Assembly: GCA_050700835.1 (NCBI GenBank) | Contig: JBOHDX010000048.1 | Location: 1,952-65,951 of the forward strand | Source of the DNA: Nocardioidaceae bacterium | Lineage (GTDB): Bacteria > Actinomycetota > Actinomycetes > Propionibacteriales > Nocardioidaceae | Length of the DNA stretch: 64,000 nt | Direction of reading: 5' to 3' | Shown: piece by piece, positions 28,215-35,270 of the stretch | How positions within the stretch are numbered: the first letter of the stretch is position 1 | Layout: every line of letters begins with the position of its first letter | Translations under genes and position numbers: made by a program | Notes under the pieces: model-generated | Seen by the model: the letters and a program-made list of their open reading frames with translations, nothing else | Database searches by the model: none | What the model was told of the DNA's origin: nothing

Positions 28215-29063
28215 TCAGCGACGCCCCCCCTGCAGGATCGCGAGGATCCGCAGCATCTCGATGTACAACCAGACGATCGTCACGGTGAGGCCGAACGCGG
28301 CCCGCCACGACTCCCGCTCCGGCATCCCGGCCGCGACGGCTCGCTCGACGTAGTCGAAGTCGAGCACGAGCATCAACACACCGAGGACGACGCCGACGGC
28401 GCTGGACAGCAGGCCAAGCGTGCCGAACCCGTTGAAGCCGAAGCTCGACCCGAAGAAGCTCAGGATCATGTCGAGGAACGACACCGCGACGAACCCGAAC
28501 ATGGCCGCGACGACGCCCTTGCGGAACCGGTCGGTCACCCGGATGTTCAGCACCTTGTACGCCGCGAGCGTGCCGGCGAACGCTGCCACCGTGCCCAGCA
28601 CCGCGCCGGGGACGACCCCGTGGAACGCGGTGTCGAAGACCTTGGAGACGGCGCCGATGAAGACGCCTTCCACGACGGCGTAGGCGAGGACCAGTGCCGG
28701 GCTGACGACGCGCTTGAAGGAGTTGACCAGAGCGAGGCCAAAGCCGACGAAGGCGCCACCCATGGCAAGCGTCTGGGCACGCTGGTAGTTGGCCATCAGC
28801 ACGGTGTCGCCCACGACGAACCAGGTGACGGCAGCGGCCGCGACCAGCAGGCCGAGGGTCATCGCAGTCTTCTGGACGACGGAGTCGACGGTGATCCGGC
28901 CTTCGACGTCCGTCGCCGACCCGACCGACCAGGTCGACGGATCGGAGTGGCCGTAGCCGGTGTAGGGCCCGCTGCCTGGGTACGTCGGGTTGCCGTAGGC
29001 GTTGGCACCTCGACCGTTGAACGCATCACTGCGCGCGAAGACGGGGTTTCTGCTCTGCATCAT
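28215..29063 (-). CDS. Bax inhibitor-1/YccA family membrane protein
   Basis: 282-aa ORF. A Gly/Pro/Tyr-rich N-terminus is followed by seven hydrophobic segments and a C-terminal 'TIVWLYIEMLRILAIL' typical of BI-1 proteins. Confidence 0.85.
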   Translation of the reverse strand: MMQSRNPVFARSDAFNGRGANAYGNPTYPGSGPYTGYGHSDPSTWSVGSATDVEGRITVDSVVQKTAMTLGLLVAAAAVTWFVVGDTVLMANYQRAQTLAMGGAFVGFGLALVNSFKRVVSPALVLAYAVVEGVFIGAVSKVFDTAFHGVVPGAVLGTVAAFAGTLAAYKVLNIRVTDRFRKGVVAAMFGFVAVSFLDMILSFFGSSFGFNGFGTLGLLSSAVGVVLGVLMLVLDFDYVERAVAAGMPERESWRAAFGLTVTIVWLYIEMLRILAILQGGRR

Positions 29064-29157
29064 TCCTCCGGGCGAGCTGCCTTGACTGCGGTGGGCTGTG
29101 CACCAGCGTACCGGGCGTACGCGACGAGCCCCGGCGTTCGGCGACGAGCAGACCAGC

Positions 29158-29218
29158 GTCCGGCCAGAGTCAGGCCAGAGTCAGGCCAGAGTCAGGCCAG
29201 AGTCCGGCCAGCGTCAGG
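29158..29218. repeat. 5.5 x 11-bp tandem repeat (gtcaggccaga)
   Basis: Lies between the folE stop (which is inside the last partial unit) and the BI-1 gene start. Verified by codon counting against ORF 28182..29255. Confidence 0.9.
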
Positions 29219-29813
29219 AGCTCGCTCCGGTGAGGGCGAAGAACTCCTGACGTGAGCGGGGATCCTCGCGCAGGGTGCCGAGCAACGTCGACGTGATCGT
29301 GTCGGAGCCGAGGGCCCGAACCCCGCGCAGCGTCATGCAGGTGTGCTCCGCGACGACCACCACCCCGACGCCCTGTGGGTTCAGCTGCTGGCAGAGCCAG
29401 TCGGCGATCTGCTTGGTGAGACGCTCCTGGACCTGCGGGCGGGAGGCGAAGTGTTCGACGACACGTGCCAGCTTGGACAGTCCCAGGATCCGCTCGCCAG
29501 GAAGGTAGCCGACGTGTGCGACACCGACGAACGGCAGCAGGTGGTGCTCACAGACCGAGCGGAGGGGGATGCCCCGGGCGAGCACCAGCTCGTCGTACCC
29601 CTCCTCGTTGGGGAACGTGGTCAGGTCGAACGGCCGGGGGGAGAACAGCTCCGCGTGGGCCCGAGCCATCCGGCCCGGCGTCTCCCGCAGACTCTCGATG
29701 TCACAGGCGATGCCGAGAGCCCTGAGGTACTCCGCGGCGGCGCGTTCGGCGGCGACGAGGTCGATGCCGTCGCCGGGCTCGTGCACGACTCGAAGGGCGG
29801 GGGCCGACGTCAT
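29214..29813 (-). CDS. folE: GTP cyclohydrolase I (FolE type I)
   Basis: This is the last 199 aa of ORF 29214..30113, starting at MTSAPALRV. 'SVCEHHLLPFVG', 'LSKLARVVEHFASRPQVQERLT' and 'VVVAEHTCMTLRG' are present. The start lies 3 nt after the upstream gene's stop. Confidence 0.9.
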   Translation of the reverse strand: MTSAPALRVVHEPGDGIDLVAAERAAAEYLRALGIACDIESLRETPGRMARAHAELFSPRPFDLTTFPNEEGYDELVLARGIPLRSVCEHHLLPFVGVAHVGYLPGERILGLSKLARVVEHFASRPQVQERLTKQIADWLCQQLNPQGVGVVVVAEHTCMTLRGVRALGSDTITSTLLGTLREDPRSRQEFFALTGASS

Positions 29814-29815
29814 GG

Positions 29816-30277
29816 TCAGCCACCGCCGAGCTGCAGGGCCGTCAGCAGGACGAGCACCACCGTGACGACGGCGAGCAGGCCGTGGCCGACGACGACAGCC
29901 AGCGGGAAGCTGCTCTCGGCGGGCGGCTGGGCGGTGCCGGTCATCCCCGTCGTCGCACCCGGCGCGGCGGGAACACCGGAGACGACGGAGCTTGCGCGAC
30001 GGGCCGGCAGCCATCGGGCGAGCATGGTGAACCCCAGCAGGGCTACCGGCACGAGGATCACGAACGCCGCCCAGGCGAGTGCGTGACTGCCATCGATGAC
30101 GTACCCGATCCACACCAGGAGGCCGACGGCCGCCAAGGCGAAGTGGCCGAAGATCACTGGAGCGGGGAAGCGAGTCGTCCGAGGCTCACGGGTGCCGCCC
30201 TTGGCGATCCAGGTGCCCAGTAGGTAGAAGCCGCCCACGGCCGTGACGAGCCAGGTGACGAGTGCCGCAGTGCCCAT
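29816..30277 (-). CDS. hypothetical four-TM membrane protein
   Basis: 153-aa ORF with hydrophobic helices. It is tightly packed (3-nt gaps) between the DUF2231-like gene and folE. Confidence 0.55.
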   Translation of the reverse strand: MGTAALVTWLVTAVGGFYLLGTWIAKGGTREPRTTRFPAPVIFGHFALAAVGLLVWIGYVIDGSHALAWAAFVILVPVALLGFTMLARWLPARRASSVVSGVPAAPGATTGMTGTAQPPAESSFPLAVVVGHGLLAVVTVVLVLLTALQLGGG

Positions 30278-30280
30278 CGT

Positions 30281-30835
30281 TCAGTTCTCCTGACTGCGCG
30301 CCGCGCGTGGATCCAGGCGAGGGGCAGGGCGTTCGTAGCCCTCGGCCTGAGTCGTCTCGTCGGCGACGCGTACCCCGTATCGGAAGGCGAGCTTGCCGCC
30401 CAGGAATCCCGAGAAGCCGAGTGCGACCAGGCTGGCGGCGGACAGCTCCAGTGGCCCAGCGGCGACCCCCAGCCGGTCGTCGCTGCCCAGGCGCCAGGCG
30501 AAGTTGCCGACGTACGCAACGGTGACCAGCAGGTTGAGGGTCATGTGCACCAGCCCCACCCGGTACGCCCGGGTGCCGGCCGGGATGGCGAAGAGGTCGA
30601 GGAAGCCGATCATCGCGGCACCGAGGGCGCCGACGACGCCGATCCCGATCAGCCACCGGGAACCCTCGGTCAAGGACGTCGGGTCGCCCGCCAGCCGGGA
30701 GCCGATGTCGAAGACGAGGCTGGCGACCCAGGCGCCGATCGGGACGGTCACGGCGATCGGGTGGAACGGGTGACCGTAGGGTCCAGCGAGCGCCGCACTC
30801 ACCGGCTGCTTCGCCCGCTGCATCGGCTCGGTCAT
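30281..30835 (-). CDS. DUF2231-like membrane protein
   Basis: The track ORF is 30281..30880; the likely start is MTEPMQRAK (30835). 'HPFHPIAVTVPIGAWVASLVFD' and 'VHMTLNLLVTVAYV' are as in DUF2231 proteins. Confidence 0.65.
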   Translation of the reverse strand: MTEPMQRAKQPVSAALAGPYGHPFHPIAVTVPIGAWVASLVFDIGSRLAGDPTSLTEGSRWLIGIGVVGALGAAMIGFLDLFAIPAGTRAYRVGLVHMTLNLLVTVAYVGNFAWRLGSDDRLGVAAGPLELSAASLVALGFSGFLGGKLAFRYGVRVADETTQAEGYERPAPRLDPRAARSQEN

Positions 30836-30877
30836 TACGGCACCTCGTCGCCAGTCGCATTGCCACGGTGTTGATTT

Positions 30878-30895
30878 CACTAACTACTCTTAGTG
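30878..30895. promoter_or_regulatory. palindrome CACTAA-N6-TTAGTG in an AT-rich divergent promoter region (candidate operator)
   Basis: Perfect 6-bp arms. It lies within the low-GC stretch of roughly 30860-30960 between the DUF2231-folE operon and the wHTH regulator. The additional inverted pairs tatctc/gagata and tctcatt/aatgaga lie just downstream. Confidence 0.35.
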
Positions 30896-30968
30896 TTATC
30901 TCATTCGGCGTGTTCAGTCAAGAGATAGAGGCAATGAGAGTTCCGGGATACGCGCTCGTTCCCGGTGC

Positions 30969-30974
30969 TAGATT
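30969..30974 (+). promoter_or_regulatory. candidate -10 hexamer TAGATT positioned for a leaderless regulator mRNA
   Basis: It fits the TANNNT pattern and ends 6 nt before GTG 30981. No convincing RBS is present. Confidence 0.3.
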
Positions 30975-30980
30975 GAGAAG

Positions 30981-31709
30981 GTGCCAACGGACCTCGCACC
31001 CGGCGCCGGATCGCAGGAACCCTCGATCCGGGCGGTGGCCGCGCTGCAGGACGACCTCCGCAGGGGCATGTACTCCTTCATCCGCCGTGCTCGGCGGCCC
31101 GTCACCCGAGACGAGGCCGCGGCGTCGGTCGGCATCTCCCGCAAGCTCGCGGCGTTCCACCTGGACAAGCTCGTCGAGGCCGGCGTGCTGCGGGCCGGGT
31201 ACGCCTCGGCCGCCGGCGCTCGCAAGGTCGGCAGGGCTCCGAAGGTCTACGAACCGTCCGACGCCGACTTCCGGGTCAGCATCCCGCCCCGCCGACACGA
31301 GGTCCTGGCCCACATCCTGCTCGACGCCATGCTGGCCGACGGCTCGCGGGAGAGCCCCCGCCAGGCGGCCGTGCGCGTCGCCCGCGAACGCGGTCAGCTG
31401 ATCGGCGGTGCCGAACGCGAGGAGGCGAGGCCCGGCCGGCTGGGCGCGGAACGCGCGCTGACCATGGCCGCCGGGGTCCTGGCGCGTTACGGCTTCGAAC
31501 CGGACCGTGAGGCGTCGACCTGCGTACGCCTGCGCAACTGCCCGTTCCACCCACTTGCCGACGAGGCACCGGAGCTCGTGTGCGGGATCAACCACGCCTT
31601 TCTTTCCGGCTTGCTCGACGGGCTCGAGGCCTCGGCACTCACGGCGGTGCTGGACCCGCGGGCCGGTGAGTGCTGCGTGGAGCTGCGCGCGGCCGACCGG
31701 GCCGGCTGA
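30981..31709 (+). CDS. winged-HTH transcriptional regulator (ArsR-like N-terminus, Cys-rich C-terminal domain)
   Basis: 242-aa ORF with a GTG start. The wHTH is 'VTRDEAAASVGISRKLAAFHLDKLVEAGVL'. C-terminal cysteines occur in 'CVRLRNCPFHPL', 'LVCGINH' and 'ECCVEL'. It is divergent from the DUF2231-folE operon. Confidence 0.75.
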   Translation: MPTDLAPGAGSQEPSIRAVAALQDDLRRGMYSFIRRARRPVTRDEAAASVGISRKLAAFHLDKLVEAGVLRAGYASAAGARKVGRAPKVYEPSDADFRVSIPPRRHEVLAHILLDAMLADGSRESPRQAAVRVARERGQLIGGAEREEARPGRLGAERALTMAAGVLARYGFEPDREASTCVRLRNCPFHPLADEAPELVCGINHAFLSGLLDGLEASALTAVLDPRAGECCVELRAADRAG

Positions 31710-31755
31710 GCCCTCGCTCGTCACCGCACCGGCTGAGCCCTCGCTCGTCACCGCA
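31702..31755. repeat. 2 x 27-bp perfect tandem repeat containing the regulator stop codon
   Basis: ccggctgagccctcgctcgtcaccgca occurs twice. The first copy carries the TGA at 31707-31709. Confidence 0.9.
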
Positions 31756-31799
31756 CCGGTGGTGCCCCCGGTGATGCCCCCGGTGTGTGCCCCCGGTGG
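31756..31799. repeat. 3 x 12-13-bp tandem repeat that reiterates the tRNA 3' acceptor end
   Basis: ccggtggtgccc / ccggtgatgccc / ccggtgtgtgccc, then ccggtggg. The last unit is the 3' end of the tRNA at 31788-31862. Confidence 0.8.
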
Positions 31800-31862
31800 G
31801 AGTCGAACCCACACCTGTCGCGGGTTTAAGCCGCGTGCCTCTGCCGGTTGGGCTACGGGGGC
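31788..31862 (-). tRNA. atypical tRNA, anticodon UAA (reads UUA-Leu), Leu-type D arm, short variable loop
   Basis: My manual fold of GCCCCCG-TA-GCC-CAACCGGCAGA-GGC-A-CGCGG-CTTAAAC-CCGCG-ACAGGT-GTGGG-TTCGACT-CCCAC-CGGGGGC-A. It has a 7-bp acceptor, a T-loop TTCGA, U33 and A37, and discriminator A73. No CCA is encoded. The variable region is only 6 nt. Confidence 0.6.
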
Positions 31863-31981: not shown

Positions 31982-32061
31982 CGGGGCAGGTCAGGCCGGG
32001 TCAGGTCGGGGTCACGTCGGGGTCAGTTCGGGGTCAGTTCGGGGTCAGTTCGGGGTCGGGT
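31982..32061. repeat. about 7 x 11-bp tandem repeat (cggggtcagtt)
   Basis: Three perfect central copies are flanked by variant copies. The array spans the stop codon (32045-32047) of the CFA-synthase-like gene. Confidence 0.85.
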
Positions 32062-33322
32062 CCGGCCAGCCGGACCGGCCGTCTGCGAACGGCCGTACCG
32101 CGAGGACCTGGTGCACCGACACCCGGGCCCGCTCGAAGCCGACCGCGGCGAGTGCCAGCAGCAGCCGCCACACGCGCGTCTGAGCCTCCCCCGCCACCCG
32201 CTCCGCGTCCGGCAGATGCCGCTCGAGGTTGGCCAGCCAGGCGCGCAACGTCGGGGGGTAGTGCTCACGCAGGTTCGTCACCTCGCGAAGCTCGAGCCCG
32301 GCGTCCTCCAAGGCTGCCACGAGGGCCGCCACCGGGACCACCGGCCGGTCTGCATAGACGTAGCTGGTGATGAACGTTGGCGAGCCCTCCTGTGGCTGAC
32401 CGCGCCGAGTCACCTGCTGCTGGAGCAGCCGCCCGCCGGGCGCCAGCAGCTGCTGGGCGGCCGCCGCGTAGCCGACCAGGTCGTCCTCGCCGAGATGCTC
32501 GTTCGCCTCGATCGCCGCGATGGCGTCGTACGGCCCGTCCTCGATCGCCGCGTAGTCGCCGAGCCGTACCGCGATCCGGTCGGCCAGCCCGGCGGCCTGC
32601 ACCCGGCGACGCACGAAGTCGGCGCGAGATGCCGAGCGGACCACGCCCACCGCCGACACGTCGTGATGGCGGGCGGCGTGCAGCAGGAGGGAACCCCACC
32701 CGCAGCCGACGTCGAGGAGGCGCTCCCCCGGCTGCAGCCGGAGCACTCGGCAGATCCGCTCGAGCTTGGCCTCCTGAGCCGCGTCGAGGCCGGTGGTGGA
32801 CTCGTCCCACCAGGCACAGGAGTAGGTCAGCGACGAGCCGAGAACCTGCTCTAGCAGCCGCGGGCCCGTTCCGCCGCTCGCGCCGTGCGCGGTCTCCGCG
32901 GCCTGCTCGCGACCGCTCGTCGACGCCTCGCCGGACAGGGTCAACTCCTGCGGCGGTGGCTTCGGGGCCGGTCCGACGGCTCCGAGCAGCACCGCGGTAC
33001 GCAGGATCTCGCGTCGGTCCGCGGCGGACAGGCTGGGCGCGGGTCCGATCAGCGCGCCGTACTCCGCGAGCTGTCGCAGCGCGTGGACAAGGTCGCCCTC
33101 GATGTCGATCTCGCCCGCGACGTACGCCCGGGCGAGACCGAGCTCTCCCGGCGCCCACAGCAGCCTTCGCACGGCTTTGCGGCTGTGCACCTGCACCGTC
33201 GGGCCGTCGCCGCCGCCGGCCTTGGAGCCGTCCCAGCCCACCAGCTGCACCGGCGGTGCGACGCCGAACAGCTGGACGAGCAAGGCGTACAGGCGGTCGG
33301 CGACTCCGTTCCGATCACTCAT
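32045..33322 (-). CDS. cyclopropane-fatty-acyl-phospholipid synthase-family SAM-dependent methyltransferase
   Basis: The track ORF is 32045..33445; the start is at MSDRNGVADRL (33322). 'LLDVGCGWGSLLLHAA', 'SYVYADRPV' and 'REHYPPTLRAWLANL' are CMAS-family hallmarks. Confidence 0.85.
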   Translation of the reverse strand: MSDRNGVADRLYALLVQLFGVAPPVQLVGWDGSKAGGGDGPTVQVHSRKAVRRLLWAPGELGLARAYVAGEIDIEGDLVHALRQLAEYGALIGPAPSLSAADRREILRTAVLLGAVGPAPKPPPQELTLSGEASTSGREQAAETAHGASGGTGPRLLEQVLGSSLTYSCAWWDESTTGLDAAQEAKLERICRVLRLQPGERLLDVGCGWGSLLLHAARHHDVSAVGVVRSASRADFVRRRVQAAGLADRIAVRLGDYAAIEDGPYDAIAAIEANEHLGEDDLVGYAAAAQQLLAPGGRLLQQQVTRRGQPQEGSPTFITSYVYADRPVVPVAALVAALEDAGLELREVTNLREHYPPTLRAWLANLERHLPDAERVAGEAQTRVWRLLLALAAVGFERARVSVHQVLAVRPFADGRSGWPDPTPN

Positions 33323-33335
33323 GGGTGTCTGTCTA

Positions 33336-34241
33336 TCAGGGCGCTCTGGTGTCGTCAGGGGTGCCGGCGGGGGTGTCCGCGTGGGTGTCGGCGGGGGTGT
33401 CCGCGTCGGCGGGCCACGGTCCGAGGCCCGCCACCGCGCGGGCACGCGCGAGCACCGTGTCCAGCATCGGCTCGGTGAGCCGACCCGTGAACGTGTTCTG
33501 CTGGCTGGGGTGATAGCTGCCGATCAGCGTCAGGTCGGGTCGCAGCCGCGCCTCGGCCGCGTGGCCGAAGCGTGGACGCGGCGCGGGCACGACCACGCCG
33601 AGGCGCCGGAGCGAGCGAAGCGCCGCATCCCAGCCGTACCCACCGAGCGCAAGGATGCACCGGATGCCCGGGAGGACGGCGGCGAGCTCGGCGTCGAGCC
33701 AGGGTGCGCAGGTGTCGCGTTCGACTGTCGTGGGCCGGTTCGCCGGTGGGGCGCAACGCACGGCGGCCATCATCCGAGTGTCGACCAGTGCCTGGCCGTC
33801 GCCGGCGTGCAGGCTCGTCGGCCGGCAGGCGAGCCCCGCGCGAAACAGGGCGTCGAACAGCCAGTCGCCGGACCGGTCGCCGGTGAAGATCCGGCCCGTG
33901 CGGTTGCCGCCGTGCGCCGCCGGCGCCAGGCCTACGACGACGATCCGCGGCCGCGGGTCGCCCCAGCCGGCGACGGGGCGGCCCCAGTAGGGCTCCGACT
34001 CGAACGAGCGGCGCCTGGTCGACGCGGTCGTCTCCCGCCACTGGACCAACCGGGGGCAGGCCCGGCACACCGACACCCGGGCGTCGATCTGCGCCAGGCC
34101 CGCCGATGCGGCCAGCTCCCGAACCTGCGCCGAGTCGGCGGCGACGGGCGTGCGCGACGTGGCGGGATCGTCCGGCCAGCCGGTGCCCGGCGGCACCGGG
34201 CTGGCGAACTCCTGACCGGTGATCGGGTGCGGCGCCATCAC
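33336..34241 (-). CDS. uracil-DNA glycosylase, family 5 (UdgB-like)
   Basis: 301-aa ORF with 'CRACPRLVQW', 'VVGLAPAAHGGNRTGRIFTGD' and 'GSYHPSQQN'. The repeat-coded Thr/Pro/Ala/Asp tail is low complexity. Confidence 0.8.
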   Translation of the reverse strand: MMAPHPITGQEFASPVPPGTGWPDDPATSRTPVAADSAQVRELAASAGLAQIDARVSVCRACPRLVQWRETTASTRRRSFESEPYWGRPVAGWGDPRPRIVVVGLAPAAHGGNRTGRIFTGDRSGDWLFDALFRAGLACRPTSLHAGDGQALVDTRMMAAVRCAPPANRPTTVERDTCAPWLDAELAAVLPGIRCILALGGYGWDAALRSLRRLGVVVPAPRPRFGHAAEARLRPDLTLIGSYHPSQQNTFTGRLTEPMLDTVLARARAVAGLGPWPADADTPADTHADTPAGTPDDTRAP

Positions 34242-34337: not shown

Positions 34338-35270
34338 TCAGGCCACGGACCAGGCGATGCCGTCGAGGACGTCGTGCTCGCTGACCACCAGGTCACTGCG
34401 GCCTCCGGCGTCGACCACCCGGCCGAGCACCACCTCGAGCACGAGTGCGCCGCCGCCGATGACGTCGGCTCGACCCGGGTGCATGAACGGCATCGCCGTG
34501 CGCTGCGCGACCGTCGCGGCCAGCAGCTCGGCGCACGACGATCGGACGACGTGGATCGGCAGCCGGGCGTGATGGATGCGCGCGGAGTCGTAGCCAGACA
34601 GTCCGAGCGCGTGCGCCGCCACCGTGGTGACCGTGCCGGCGACGCCGACCACCGACCGGACCGAGGTCCAGTCGAGCGCTGCCCCGTCGATCGCCCGGGC
34701 GGCGTCGTCGCGAGCGGCTTCGACCTCGTCCGAGTCCGGCGGGTCGCTGCGCAGATACCGTTCGGTCAGGCGTACCGAACCGATGTCGACCGAGCGCGCG
34801 TACGCCGGTACCGTTGCTAGCCCGTCGCCGAGGATCAGCTCGGTCGAGCCGCCGCCGATGTCGACCACGAGCGTCGGCGCGGCGAGGCCGGGCAGGTCAC
34901 GCATCGCGCCGTGGTACGACAGGGCCGCCTCCTCGGCACCGGTGAGCACCTCCGGGTCGACACCGAACCGCTCGCGCACCCCGGCGGCGAACTCGCCGGC
35001 GTTGCGCGCGTCACGGGCCGCCGACGTCGCACAGAACCGGACCGCCTCGGCCCCACCGGCACGGATGATCGCGGCGAACGTGTCGCAGACGGCGAAGGTC
35101 CGCCGCAACGCCTCGGGCGCCAACGTGCCGGTCTCGTCGACTCCCTCGCCGAGCCGGACGATCTCCATCCGGCGCTCGATGTCCCTCTGTGCAGCGTCAC
35201 CGGGATCGAGATCGCACAGCAGCAGCCGGATCGAGTTGGTGCCGCAGTCAACGGCGGCGACTCTGGTCAT
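34338..35270 (-). CDS. Ppx/GppA-family phosphatase (exopolyphosphatase-like)
   Basis: 310-aa ORF with 'VAAVDCGTNSIRLL' and 'VVDIGGGSTEL'. The start overlaps the stop of the DUF501 gene by 4 nt. Confidence 0.9.
   Translation of the reverse strand: MTRVAAVDCGTNSIRLLLCDLDPGDAAQRDIERRMEIVRLGEGVDETGTLAPEALRRTFAVCDTFAAIIRAGGAEAVRFCATSAARDARNAGEFAAGVRERFGVDPEVLTGAEEAALSYHGAMRDLPGLAAPTLVVDIGGGSTELILGDGLATVPAYARSVDIGSVRLTERYLRSDPPDSDEVEAARDDAARAIDGAALDWTSVRSVVGVAGTVTTVAAHALGLSGYDSARIHHARLPIHVVRSSCAELLAATVAQRTAMPFMHPGRADVIGGGALVLEVVLGRVVDAGGRSDLVVSEHDVLDGIAWSVA

What the first reader, a model, noticed from the sequence alone, without database searches (positions are those of the whole stretch)
31756..31862. 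Atypical tRNA: anticodon UAA, Leu-type D arm, but no long variable arm; its 3' end is reiterated three times
Seen in the sequence: a 75-nt minus-strand tRNA (31788-31862) folds with these features.
- A perfect 7-bp acceptor stem.
- A T-arm GTGGG/TTCGACT/CCCAC.
- An anticodon arm CGCGG/CTTAAAC/CCGCG, which puts anticodon 5'-UAA-3' at 31826-31828.
- Discriminator A73.
- A 3-bp D stem with the 11-nt loop CAACCGGCAGA.

The D arm and A73 are the pattern of bacterial class II tRNA-Leu. However, the variable region is only 6 nt (ACAGGT) rather than an extra arm of more than 10 nt.

Established knowledge: UUA is the rarest Leu codon in high-GC actinomycetes. Its cognate tRNA (bldA in Streptomyces) acts as a developmental regulator.

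Also seen: the plus-strand 12-mer covering the 3' acceptor strand (ccggtgNtgccc) is tandemly repeated three times (31756-31799), right after a perfect 2 x 27-bp repeat. No integrase or other mobile gene is nearby.

Inference: this is either a degenerate or duplicated tRNA-Leu(UAA) pseudogene, or a functional class-I-like UUA decoder of uncertain charging identity.
Basis: partly seen in the sequence, partly recalled or inferred. Interest (0 to 1): 0.6.

Follow-up and report, generated by a model that had tools for sequence, protein, structure and literature searches.

The report
Ordinary short-armed actinobacterial leucine tRNA (UAA)
This is a real, working leucine tRNA for the very rare UUA codon. 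It lacks the usual long side-arm, but this short form is normal across Actinobacteria, including Mycobacterium tuberculosis, so the gene is ordinary; its tail has been copied in tandem, as at four other rare-codon tRNA genes in this genome.

Summary
ARAGORN and Rfam (55.3 bits) both call a 75-nt minus-strand tRNA at 31788-31862 with anticodon UAA, a Leu-type D arm, A73 and a 6-nt variable loop.

It is not a pseudogene or an oddity:
- It is the only UUA decoder in this roughly 98%-complete Nocardioidaceae-like genome, and it has a short-armed CAA paralog.
- The same 73-78-nt gene was found in all 132 loci examined: 12 relatives plus 120 named species.
- The four stems are paired in 94-100% of 125 distinct sequences, with many compensatory changes.
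- U8, A14, A15, G18 and G19 are invariant, and U48 and A73 nearly so.

M. tuberculosis and M. smegmatis carry an 82%-identical 74-nt tRNA-Leu(TAA). The S. coelicolor type I tRNALeu(CAA) has been shown to be leucylated (Fan 2019). So this is a new member of a known kind.

The repeats are real (12 nt x3.6 and 27 bp x2.1) but absent from relatives, and there is no integrase and no distant repeat copy. The most likely cause is slippage duplication.

One unexpected point: TRF finds the same 3'-end reiteration at four more tRNA genes of this genome (Leu-CAA, Leu-UAG, Lys-UUU, Arg-CCU). All read rare codons, and none shows it at a 5' end. This pattern is unexplained.

The parts
31788..31862 (-). Type I (short variable loop) tRNA-Leu(UAA), 75 nt from G1 to A73. 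CCA is not encoded; the trailer begins CAC.
   Evidence: ARAGORN. Rfam RF00005 at 55.3 bits over the full model. Orthologs in all 132 loci examined.
31826..31828 (-). Anticodon 5'-UAA-3' (U34 at 31828), which reads the Leu codon UUA.
   Evidence: ARAGORN places the anticodon at position 35 of the gene. The sequence is read.
31756..31799 (.). Tandem array of 12-13-nt units, 3.6 copies. Each unit holds the last 3 nt of the T stem, the 3' acceptor strand and A73. The copy nearest the T arm is part of the tRNA; the other two exact copies lie in its trailer.
   Evidence: TRF. Exact 11-mers at 31763, 31775 and 31788. Absent from relatives.
31702..31759 (.). Perfect 27-bp tandem repeat, 2.1 copies. 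The first copy contains the TGA stop (31707-31709) of the convergent gene 30981-31709. This sequence occurs only here in the genome.
   Evidence: TRF at 100% match. Genome count of the 27-mer is 2.
31989..32062 (.). 11-nt tandem array (GGTCAGGTCGG, 6.8 copies) in the spacer upstream of the tRNA.
   Evidence: TRF and the repeat finder.
30981..31709 (+). Convergent 242-aa gene with no Pfam match. Its 78-nt gap to the tRNA is filled entirely by the two tandem arrays.
   Evidence: ORF list and GC3 profile. Pfam gave no hit.
32045..33445 (-). Upstream neighbour on the same strand: a cyclopropane-fatty-acid-synthase-like methyltransferase. Together with the Ppx gene (34338-35270) and the BaxI_1 gene (28215-29063) it marks the conserved chromosomal position of this tRNA.
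   Evidence: Pfam CMAS, Ppx-GppA and BaxI_1 hits. Synteny with Nocardioides and other actinobacterial loci by blastn.

Best explanation
The gene is the normal, functional tRNA-Leu(UAA) of a Nocardioidaceae-like actinobacterium. It belongs to the 'type I' short-variable-loop form of tRNA-Leu. Most Actinomycetota use this form for the UUR codons (anticodons UAA and CAA), while their CUN isoacceptors keep the long arm.

Inferred from homologues, not shown here: it is transcribed as a stand-alone gene, trimmed after A73, given CCA by the CCA-adding enzyme, and leucylated by the genome's single LeuRS. Recognition would go through the acceptor end and the tRNA core (U8:A14, A15:U48, and G18G19 in a Leu-type D arm) and not through the variable arm. 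It then decodes about 150 UUA codons in about 5% of genes.

The two extra copies of its 3' acceptor strand and the neighbouring 27-bp repeat are recent, genome-specific tandem duplications. They most probably arose by replication slippage on the short CAC/CCAC microhomology between the end of the T stem and the trailer. They lie outside the mature tRNA and most likely have little or no function.
For: Shown here:
- The match is a full-length tRNA.
- It is the only taa tRNA in the 98.3%-complete genome, and a regex scan finds no long-arm candidate.
- The Leu set is tag (83 nt), gag (86 nt) and cag (85 nt) with a long arm, plus caa (74 nt) and taa (75 nt) without one. The caa and taa genes are 81% identical.
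- The query matches 28 of 31 relatives, and all 12 loci fetched from them carry a 73-77-nt Leu(taa).
- An exact pattern found more than 120 named species, including Nocardioides, Corynebacterium, Nocardia, Tsukamurella, Mycolicibacterium, Amycolatopsis, Microbacterium, Arthrobacter, Rothia, Bifidobacteriaceae, Acidimicrobiia and Nanopelagicales.
- All 132 loci gave a short Leu(taa) in ARAGORN.
- In 125 distinct sequences every stem pair is 94-100% paired, with many double changes. At positions not fixed by my search pattern, U8, C13, A14, A15, G18 and G19 are invariant, U48 is present in 123/125 and A73 in 124/125. The variable loop is 5 nt in 111, 6 nt in 13 and 7 nt in 1.
- The gene sits at a conserved position (ppx ... 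tRNA ... BaxI_1).
- TTA is the rarest codon at 0.15 per 1000, found in about 128 of 2691 rough ORFs.
- At the TTA site of GlmS, 12 of the 25 relatives with a residue aligned there have Leu and 5 more have M, V or I.

From papers:
- The M. tuberculosis and M. smegmatis tRNA-Leu(TAA) genes are 74 nt, score about 63 in tRNAscan, and are 82% identical to this one (PMC11541572 supplement).
- S. coelicolor type I tRNALeu(CAA), with variable loop ACAGC, is leucylated by its LeuRS and requires U8:A14 (PMC6614811).

Repeats:
- TRF calls both arrays.
- They are absent from 11 relatives and from 118 of 120 other species.
- There is no integrase among ten neighbouring genes and no copy of the 11-mer elsewhere in the window.
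Against: - No expression or aminoacylation data exist for this organism.
- No sigma-70-like promoter or intrinsic terminator was found by the consensus scan, although such scans fit actinobacteria poorly.
[quoted passage not shown] The LeuRS here lacks that domain, so the published recognition model cannot be transferred unchanged.
- Plain slippage does not obviously explain why five tRNA genes of this genome, and no 5' ends, carry such arrays.
Confidence: 0.88

Rival explanations
1. The gene is a degenerate or duplicated tRNA-Leu pseudogene that lost its variable arm, and the repeated 3' ends are signs of decay.
For: The short variable loop departs from the textbook bacterial tRNA-Leu. The 3' end sits in a tandem-repeat tract.
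Against: - It is the only UUA decoder in the genome.
- It scores 55.3 bits in Rfam.
- Its stems are perfect.
- Orthologs occur in all 132 loci, with compensatory changes and an invariant core.
- The ortholog is an annotated tRNA in M. tuberculosis.
Confidence: 0.02
2. The tRNA is a class I tRNA that reads UUA but is charged with an amino acid other than leucine. That would make it a mistranslating or recoding tRNA.
For: Apart from the CAA paralog, its closest body match in the genome is a class I tRNA, Lys-UUU, at 59/76. E. coli LeuRS cannot charge the S. coelicolor type I tRNALeu (PMC6614811). The LeuRS here lacks the LSD.
Against: - A73, U8:A14, A15:U48 and the 3-bp/11-nt Leu-type D arm are shared with the genome's long-arm Leu tRNAs and are conserved.
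- The same tRNA is the sole UUA reader in mycobacteria and corynebacteria, where UUA is Leu (established knowledge).
- Leu is the commonest residue at the homologous GlmS site.
- The acceptor stem of the own Lys-UUU tRNA is different.
Confidence: 0.03
3. The reiterated 3' ends are scars of mobile DNA that targets tRNA 3' ends. They could be leftover attachment-site copies of integrative elements, or target-site duplications left after an insertion sequence excised and the break was rejoined.
For: - tRNA 3' ends are the classic integration sites (established knowledge).
- The units end just after A73 and are separated by variable spacers of 1-2 nt (CA / T / C), while the 11-mers stay perfect.
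- The same pattern occurs at five stand-alone rare-codon tRNA genes and never at a 5' end.
- A 2.5-kb gene block lies between this tRNA and BaxI_1 that relatives L002 and L003 lack.
Against: - The copies are only 11-14 nt long and directly adjacent, with no element DNA between them.
- There is no integrase or transposase among the neighbours of any of the five tRNAs, and no GC anomaly.
- There is no copy of the 11-mer at the far end of the 2.5-kb block.
- Integrase excision restores a single copy.
Confidence: 0.06
4. The reiterated acceptor-strand copies are selected. In the precursor they would offer alternative partners for the 5' acceptor strand and so slow or tune 3' maturation of low-abundance, rare-codon tRNAs. 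This would be a minimal analogue of the tRNA-linked repeats of E. coli.
For: - Five of 45 tRNA genes carry such arrays, all for rare codons (rarity ranks 1, 2, 3, 10 and 15 of 42; Mann-Whitney p=0.0006).
- The 3' versus 5' count is 5:0.
- The arrays are enriched against other genomes, 5/45 versus 2/251, p=0.001.
- The 11-mers are perfect while the spacers differ.
Against: - The arrays are absent from every relative examined (0/11 for UAA, 0/11 for CAA), so they are not conserved.
- The Lys and Arg arrays are decaying.
- The trailer fold is no better than shuffled sequence (z = 0.53).
- Relaxed selection on weakly expressed genes explains the rare-codon bias equally well.
Confidence: 0.06

Closest known systems
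tRNA-Leu(TAA) of Mycobacterium tuberculosis H37Rv and M. smegmatis ('Leu-4', 74-nt genes; sequences in the supplement of PMC11541572)
   Same: Same anticodon and same short-arm architecture. Same D loop with the GGCAGAGGC motif, A73, and the T-loop sequence UUCGA. It is 82% identical (62 of 76 aligned columns). In both organisms a short-armed CAA paralog sits beside long-armed CUN isoacceptors.
   Different: This gene has a 6-nt variable loop rather than 5 nt, a different anticodon stem (compensated) and a different species. The mycobacterial gene is not reported to have a reiterated 3' end.
Type I tRNALeu(CAA) of Streptomyces coelicolor (Fan et al. 2019, NAR, PMC6614811)
   Same: It is a short variable loop tRNA-Leu (ACAGC there, ACAGGU here) in an actinomycete with one LeuRS and coexisting long-arm Leu tRNAs. 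It has been shown experimentally to be leucylated, with U8:A14 required.
   Different: The S. coelicolor tRNA is the CAA isoacceptor. In Streptomyces the UAA isoacceptor (bldA) is the long-arm type II form. The LSD of S. coelicolor LeuRS was reported as the element enabling type I charging, whereas the LeuRS here has no LSD.
bldA, the type II tRNA-Leu(UAA) of Streptomyces
   Same: It decodes the same very rare UUA codon in a high-GC actinomycete. Here UUA occurs at 0.15 per 1000 codons, in about 5% of genes.
   Different: bldA has a 17-nt variable arm (PMC6614811). No developmental role is known or testable for the gene here. Five large genomes of one actinomycete family gave no match to the short-arm pattern. 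Their identity as Streptomyces is my inference.
tRNA-linked repeats of E. coli (178-bp repeats of the tyrT operon; RtT RNA, Rfam RF00391)
   Same: These are also tandem units downstream of a tRNA gene, each ending in a copy of that tRNA's 3' terminal bases.
   Different: Those units are about 100-180 nt long and carry a conserved folded module. Here the units are bare 11-14-nt copies with nothing between them. No RtT match appears even at E<=1.

Membership tests
Bacterial tRNA-Leu | Anticodon for a Leu codon in a canonical 7-nt loop with U33 and a purine at position 37 | tested here: met
   The loop is CUUAAAC with anticodon UAA.
Bacterial tRNA-Leu | Discriminator A73 | tested here: met
   A73 is at 31788. 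It is A in 124 of 125 distinct orthologs.
Bacterial tRNA-Leu | Core tertiary elements used by LeuRS: U8:A14, the A15:U48 Levitt pair, and G18G19 placed in a 3-bp-stem, 11-nt-loop D arm | tested here: met
   All are present. The D-arm architecture matches this genome's long-arm Leu tRNAs and is 1 nt longer than that of similar class I tRNAs. U8, A14, A15, G18 and G19 are invariant, and U48 is present in 123/125. The U8:A14 requirement is shown in PMC6614811.
Bacterial tRNA-Leu | Long (more than 10 nt) variable arm, the class II architecture | tested here: not met
   The variable loop is 6 nt, ACAGGU. The loop is 5-7 nt in all 125 orthologs. This feature defines the textbook class II form, not leucine identity: type I tRNALeu is leucylated in S. 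coelicolor (PMC6614811).
Bacterial tRNA-Leu | Actually charged with leucine | not testable with these tools
   Only indirect support is available: orthology to the mycobacterial tRNA-Leu(TAA), and one TTA site in GlmS where Leu predominates in relatives.
Actinobacterial type I tRNALeu (UUR isoacceptors) | A 5-6-nt variable loop of the form NCAGU, a short-armed CAA paralog, long-arm CUN isoacceptors, and a single LeuRS | tested here: met
   The Leu tRNA set is given. The CAA paralog is present in 11 relatives. There is one LeuRS gene above the TIGR00396 cut-off.
Actinobacterial type I tRNALeu (UUR isoacceptors) | The LeuRS carries the S. coelicolor-type leucine-specific domain said to enable type I charging | tested here: not met
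   LeuRS residues 603-608 span what are residues 578-637 in T. thermophilus LeuRS, so the LSD is replaced by about 4 residues. The same segment aligns in 29 of 31 relatives, across all 122 codons with no insertion in 22 of the 28. This concerns the mechanism of charging, not the tRNA's family membership.
tRNA pseudogene | Sub-threshold covariance score, broken stems, no conservation, and a functional copy elsewhere | tested here: not met
   The gene scores 55.3 bits against a gathering score of 29. Its stems are perfect. It is conserved with covariation. It is the sole UAA tRNA.
tRNA-anchored integrative element (att site) | A direct repeat of the tRNA 3' segment bracketing inserted DNA that encodes an integrase | tested here: not met
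   The copies are adjacent, with spacers of 1-2 nt. There is no integrase. There is no distal copy.
tRNA-linked repeats / RtT (RF00391) | Units of about 100-180 nt with a conserved structured module that ends in the tRNA's 3' bases | tested here: not met
   The units are 12-13 nt. Rfam at E<=1 finds only the tRNA.

The most novel reading that the evidence does not exclude
In this bacterium, tandem reiteration of the 3' acceptor strand may be a non-random property of rare-codon tRNA genes. It affects five of 45 tRNA genes: Leu-UAA, Leu-CAA, Leu-UAG, Lys-UUU and Arg-CCU. It never occurs at a 5' end and is absent from relatives.

On this reading the pattern would reflect one of two things. One is a DNA process aimed at tRNA 3' ends, for example footprints of an element that inserts there and is excised and rejoined. 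The other is selected trailers that tune the maturation of low-abundance tRNAs. Either would replace ordinary slippage as the explanation.
Probability: 0.12. Interest if true: 0.5.

Novelty: new member of a known kind. Interest (0 to 1): 0.17.

Why it matters
For the tRNA itself, little changes. It is another ortholog of the short-armed tRNA-Leu(UAA) already annotated in model actinobacteria. The practical value is that annotators and readers should not flag such genes as pseudogenes or recoding devices.

Two side results may be worth a specialist's look:
- The whole order sampled here combines type I Leu tRNAs with a LeuRS that has no leucine-specific domain. That sits awkwardly with the published idea that this domain is what enables type I charging.
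- This genome has tandem copies of the 3' acceptor strand behind five rare-codon tRNA genes. I could not find this pattern described, and I could not explain it.

Tried and rejected
- **Promoter and terminator scan.** Nothing was found on either strand, which is uninformative for actinobacteria.
- **Fold of the tRNA plus repeat trailer.** It was no more stable than shuffled sequence (z = 0.53), so there is no support for a structured trailer.
- **Testing UUA=Leu on all TTA sites against the fetched loci.** Only 6 sites had any homolog, which is too few. I replaced this with a single GlmS site in 30 relatives, which gives modest support only.
- **Origin from tRNA-Lys(UUU).** This idea came from the mycobacterial sequences. 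I rejected it because this genome's own Lys-UUU has a different acceptor stem.
- **Repeats as a by-product of an unusually repeat-rich genome.** Rejected: 204 arrays per Mb here against 190 per Mb in other high-GC actinobacterial loci.
- **Island or integrase downstream of the other four reiterated tRNAs.** None was found. The neighbours include pyruvate kinase and RNase PH, and GC content is normal.
- **Literature.** The first two literature searches were poorly targeted. A search for described tRNA 3'-end micro-duplications returned only mitochondrial papers.

Full report
**1. What is there**

The window holds exactly one tRNA call. ARAGORN reports tRNA-Leu(taa) at 31787-31862 on the minus strand. 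Rfam RF00005 matches 31788-31862 over the whole model at 55.3 bits, against a gathering score of 29.

- a perfect 7-bp acceptor stem;
- a 3-bp D stem with the 11-nt loop CAACCGGCAGA;
- the anticodon arm CGCGG/CUUAAAC/CCGCG, with U34-A35-A36 at 31828-31826;
- a 6-nt variable loop, ACAGGU;
- the T arm GUGGG/UUCGACU/CCCAC;
- discriminator A73.

CCA is not encoded.

**2. Place in the genome**

The window lies on contig C48 of a 3.6-Mb, 69% GC, 166-contig assembly that is 98.3% complete.

Whole-genome ARAGORN finds a single taa tRNA. A regex scan for a UAA anticodon loop followed at long-arm distance by a T arm finds no other tRNA-like candidate.

The leucine set has two parts. Three are long-arm tRNAs: tag (83 nt), gag (86 nt) and cag (85 nt). 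Two are short-arm tRNAs: caa (74 nt, C75) and this one. The two short ones are 81% identical to each other.

The D arm has the same architecture as the genome's long-arm Leu tRNAs, with ...GGCAGAG/C followed by a 3-bp strand. It is one nucleotide longer than the otherwise similar D arms of Lys, Asn and Trp.

**3. Conservation**

A BLAST of the 75-mer against 30 relatives matched 27 of them, making 28 of 31 genomes with the own one. All 12 loci fetched, including the own one, are ARAGORN Leu(taa) genes of 73-77 nt. Their alignment shows compensated anticodon stems.

An exact pattern scan of one genome per species stopped at its 120-locus limit. The pattern was AGAG-N8-CTTAAA-N11-15-GGGTTCGANNCCC. 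Named hits include:
- Nocardioides, Aeromicrobium, Corynebacterium, Nocardia, Tsukamurella and Mycolicibacterium;
- Amycolatopsis, Nonomuraea, Streptosporangium, Microbacterium and Arthrobacter;
- Rothia, Actinomyces, Bifidobacteriaceae, Acidimicrobiia and Nanopelagicales;
- a few Planctomycetota, Rokubacteria and proteobacterial MAGs, and tRNA arrays of Nostocales.

Every one of the 132 loci carries a 73-78-nt Leu(taa).

In 125 distinct sequences, all 20 stem pairs are 94-100% paired, with abundant double (compensatory) changes. At positions not fixed by my pattern:
- U8, C13, A14, A15, G18 and G19 are invariant;
- U48 is present in 123/125 and A73 in 124/125;
- the variable loop is 5 nt in 111 sequences, 6 nt in 13 and 7 nt in 1.

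Positions inside the search pattern (AGAG, the anticodon loop, the core of the T arm) are invariant by construction and carry no weight.

In an even sample of 251 genomes of the phylum, a slightly looser form of the exact pattern hit 43 genomes, and its reversed control hit none. Five large genomes (7.5-9.2 Mb) of one family in the same class gave no hit. That fits Streptomyces, where bldA has a long arm, but their identity as Streptomyces is my inference.

The flanking genes are a CFA-synthase-like methyltransferase and Ppx/GppA on one side and BaxI_1 on the other. They are syntenic with the tRNA in many of these loci. The gene is therefore vertically inherited.

**4. What is already known**

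Fan et al. 2019 (PMC6614811) showed that S. coelicolor has a type I tRNALeu(CAA) with the 5-nt variable loop ACAGC. Its single LeuRS leucylates it, U8:A14 is required, and E. coli LeuRS cannot charge it.

The supplement of PMC11541572 lists the tRNAscan-SE sets of M. tuberculosis H37Rv and M. smegmatis. Both have a 74-nt Leu(TAA) scoring about 63 and a 74-nt Leu(CAA), beside long-arm CAG, GAG and TAG genes. The M. tuberculosis Leu(TAA) is 82% identical to the gene here.

Earlier notes of this scan reach the same conclusion for other actinobacterial genomes. I verified the mycobacterial claim myself. The short form is thus the annotated, normal UUA reader of model actinobacteria.

**5. How it most likely works**

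Shown here:
- The gene has an intact, conserved tRNA structure with the Leu core features.
- There is a single LeuRS gene (C27, TIGR00396 930 bits).
- TTA is the rarest codon: 144 of 947,061 codons, or 0.15 per 1000, in about 128 of 2691 roughly called ORFs.

Inferred:
- The tRNA is leucylated through the acceptor end and core, independently of the variable arm.
- It decodes UUA as Leu. At the one conserved TTA site I tested (GlmS residue 63), 12 of the 25 relatives with a residue aligned there have Leu and 5 more have M, V or I.

One complication concerns the LeuRS. Residues 603-608 (..QVINEGKSMSKS..) correspond to residues 578-637 of T. thermophilus LeuRS. [quoted passage not shown] The same 122-residue segment aligns in 29 of 31 relatives from five families; 22 of the 28 other than the own genome align across all 122 codons with no insertion, and the rest align slightly shorter or partially. 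Fan et al. assign type I charging to the LSD of S. coelicolor LeuRS. In this order that cannot be the mechanism.

**6. The repeats**

TRF confirms three arrays:
- a 12-nt array of 3.6 copies at 31756-31799;
- a perfect 27-bp array of 2.1 copies at 31702-31759, whose first copy contains the stop codon of the convergent gene 30981-31709;
- an 11-nt array of 6.8 copies upstream, at 31989-32062.

In RNA sense, the tRNA end ...CCCACCGGGGGCA is followed by CA-CACCGGGGGCA-U-CACCGGGGGCA-C-CACCGG...

Evidence on origin:
- The closest relatives have no such copies.
- Apart from this genome's own locus, only two of the other 131 loci, both Acidimicrobiia, have one extra copy.
- The ten neighbouring genes include no integrase or transposase.
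- The 11-mer has no further exact copy in the window, and none at the far side of the 2.5-kb folE/DUF2231/regulator block that separates the tRNA from BaxI_1 here but not in relatives.
- Rfam finds no RtT-like element.
- The trailer does not fold better than shuffled sequence.

I therefore read the copies as a recent tandem duplication of a 12-13-nt unit bounded by the CAC microhomology between the end of the T stem and the trailer.

**7. An unexpected extension**

TRF on the whole genome places arrays across the 3' boundary of four more genuine tRNA genes:
- Leu(caa): 14 nt x2.9;
- Leu(tag): 14 nt x1.9;
- Lys(ttt): 11 nt x4.9, degenerate;
- Arg(cct): 13 nt x2.5.

No genuine tRNA has an array at its 5' boundary.

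Comparisons:
- From intergenic repeat coverage (3.0%), 1.35 of 45 would be expected, giving P(>=5) of about 0.011. My non-coding set is too generous, so this value is optimistic.
- Other genomes give 2 of 251 tRNAs, Fisher p=0.001.
- Eleven relatives' Leu(caa) genes have none.
- Overall repeat density here (204 arrays per Mb) is like that of other high-GC actinobacterial loci (190 per Mb).
- The five tRNAs read rare codons, with rarity ranks 1, 2, 3, 10 and 15 of 42 (Mann-Whitney p=0.0006).
- Nothing mobile lies downstream of the other four.

Relaxed constraint on weakly used, stand-alone tRNA genes plus slippage is the simplest account. The 3' bias and the restriction to this genome remain unexplained.

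**8. Verdict**

The pseudogene alternative is wrong. The 'uncertain charging identity' is resolved in favour of Leu by homology to characterised and annotated actinobacterial tRNAs.

The gene is a new member of a known kind and of low interest in itself. Two side observations are modestly interesting and are recorded for follow-up: the LSD-less LeuRS, and the 3'-end reiteration at five rare-codon tRNA genes.

Noticed in passing
Own genome: C75:31246-31319(-), C4:177-259(+), C1:6466-6541(+), C128:29729-29802(+); window 31756-31799: Five genuine tRNA genes have TRF-detected tandem copies (11-14-nt units, 2-5 copies) of their 3' acceptor strand immediately downstream: Leu-UAA, Leu-CAA, Leu-UAG, Lys-UUU and Arg-CCU. 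None has them at the 5' end, relatives lack them, and all five read rare codons.
   Followed up: partly
Own genome C27:66138-68741(+): The single LeuRS lacks the leucine-specific domain. About 4 residues (INEG before KSMSKS) stand where T. thermophilus LeuRS has residues 578-637. The same segment aligns in 29 of 31 relatives of the order, without any insertion in most, although these genomes use type I tRNA-Leu. This conflicts with the LSD-based charging model of PMC6614811.
   Followed up: partly
Own genome, more than 20 loci, e.g. C4:82375-82439, C13:4574-4650, C22:3333-3445, C26:57433-57569, C43:86112-86172: A dispersed family of 22-nt tandem repeats, 2-6 copies per site, has a consensus near ATCCGCGGGTTCTGGCCCGCCC. 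ARAGORN's 71-nt 'tRNA-Gln(ctg)' at C68:47152-47222 is a false call inside one of them.
   Followed up: no
window 29149-29218 and 31989-32062: Two unrelated 11-nt tandem arrays (CAGGCCAGAGT x6.4 and GGTCAGGTCGG x6.8) fill intergenic spacers on either side of the tRNA region.
   Followed up: no
window 29214-31709 versus L002 and L003: In relatives the BaxI_1 gene starts about 170-200 nt downstream of tRNA-Leu(UAA). Here a block of about 2.5 kb sits between them, carrying a folE paralog, a 4-TM protein, DUF2231 and a divergent 242-aa regulator. It has no flanking repeat of the tRNA end.
   Followed up: partly
L030, L063, L093, L118 (tRNA arrays); L045, L048, L067, L070, L074: Short-armed tRNA-Leu(UAA) genes with the same D-arm and T-arm motifs also occur outside Actinomycetota. 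They sit inside 25-29-gene tRNA arrays of a Nostoc MAG (L030) and a Pirellulales MAG (L063); L093 (Cylindrospermum) and L118 (Nostocales) also hold the gene but were not scanned for other tRNAs. They occur as single chromosomal genes, some next to tRNA-Cys, in Planctomycetota, Rokubacteria and a Deltaproteobacteria MAG.
   Followed up: partly
Own genome C38:25161-25249 and C152:12854-12948: ARAGORN calls two tRNA-SeC(tca) genes. The C38 call has only 5 of 7 acceptor pairs and may be false. Several 92-96-nt calls (Gly, Pro, Thr, Asp) also look like false positives.
   Followed up: no
L097 and L113 (Acidimicrobiia MAGs): The only other genomes with a reiterated tRNA-Leu(UAA) 3' end are two Acidimicrobiia MAGs. 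Both show ...CUCCGUCCCCA-CC-UCCGUCCCCA, a single extra 12-nt copy.
   Followed up: no
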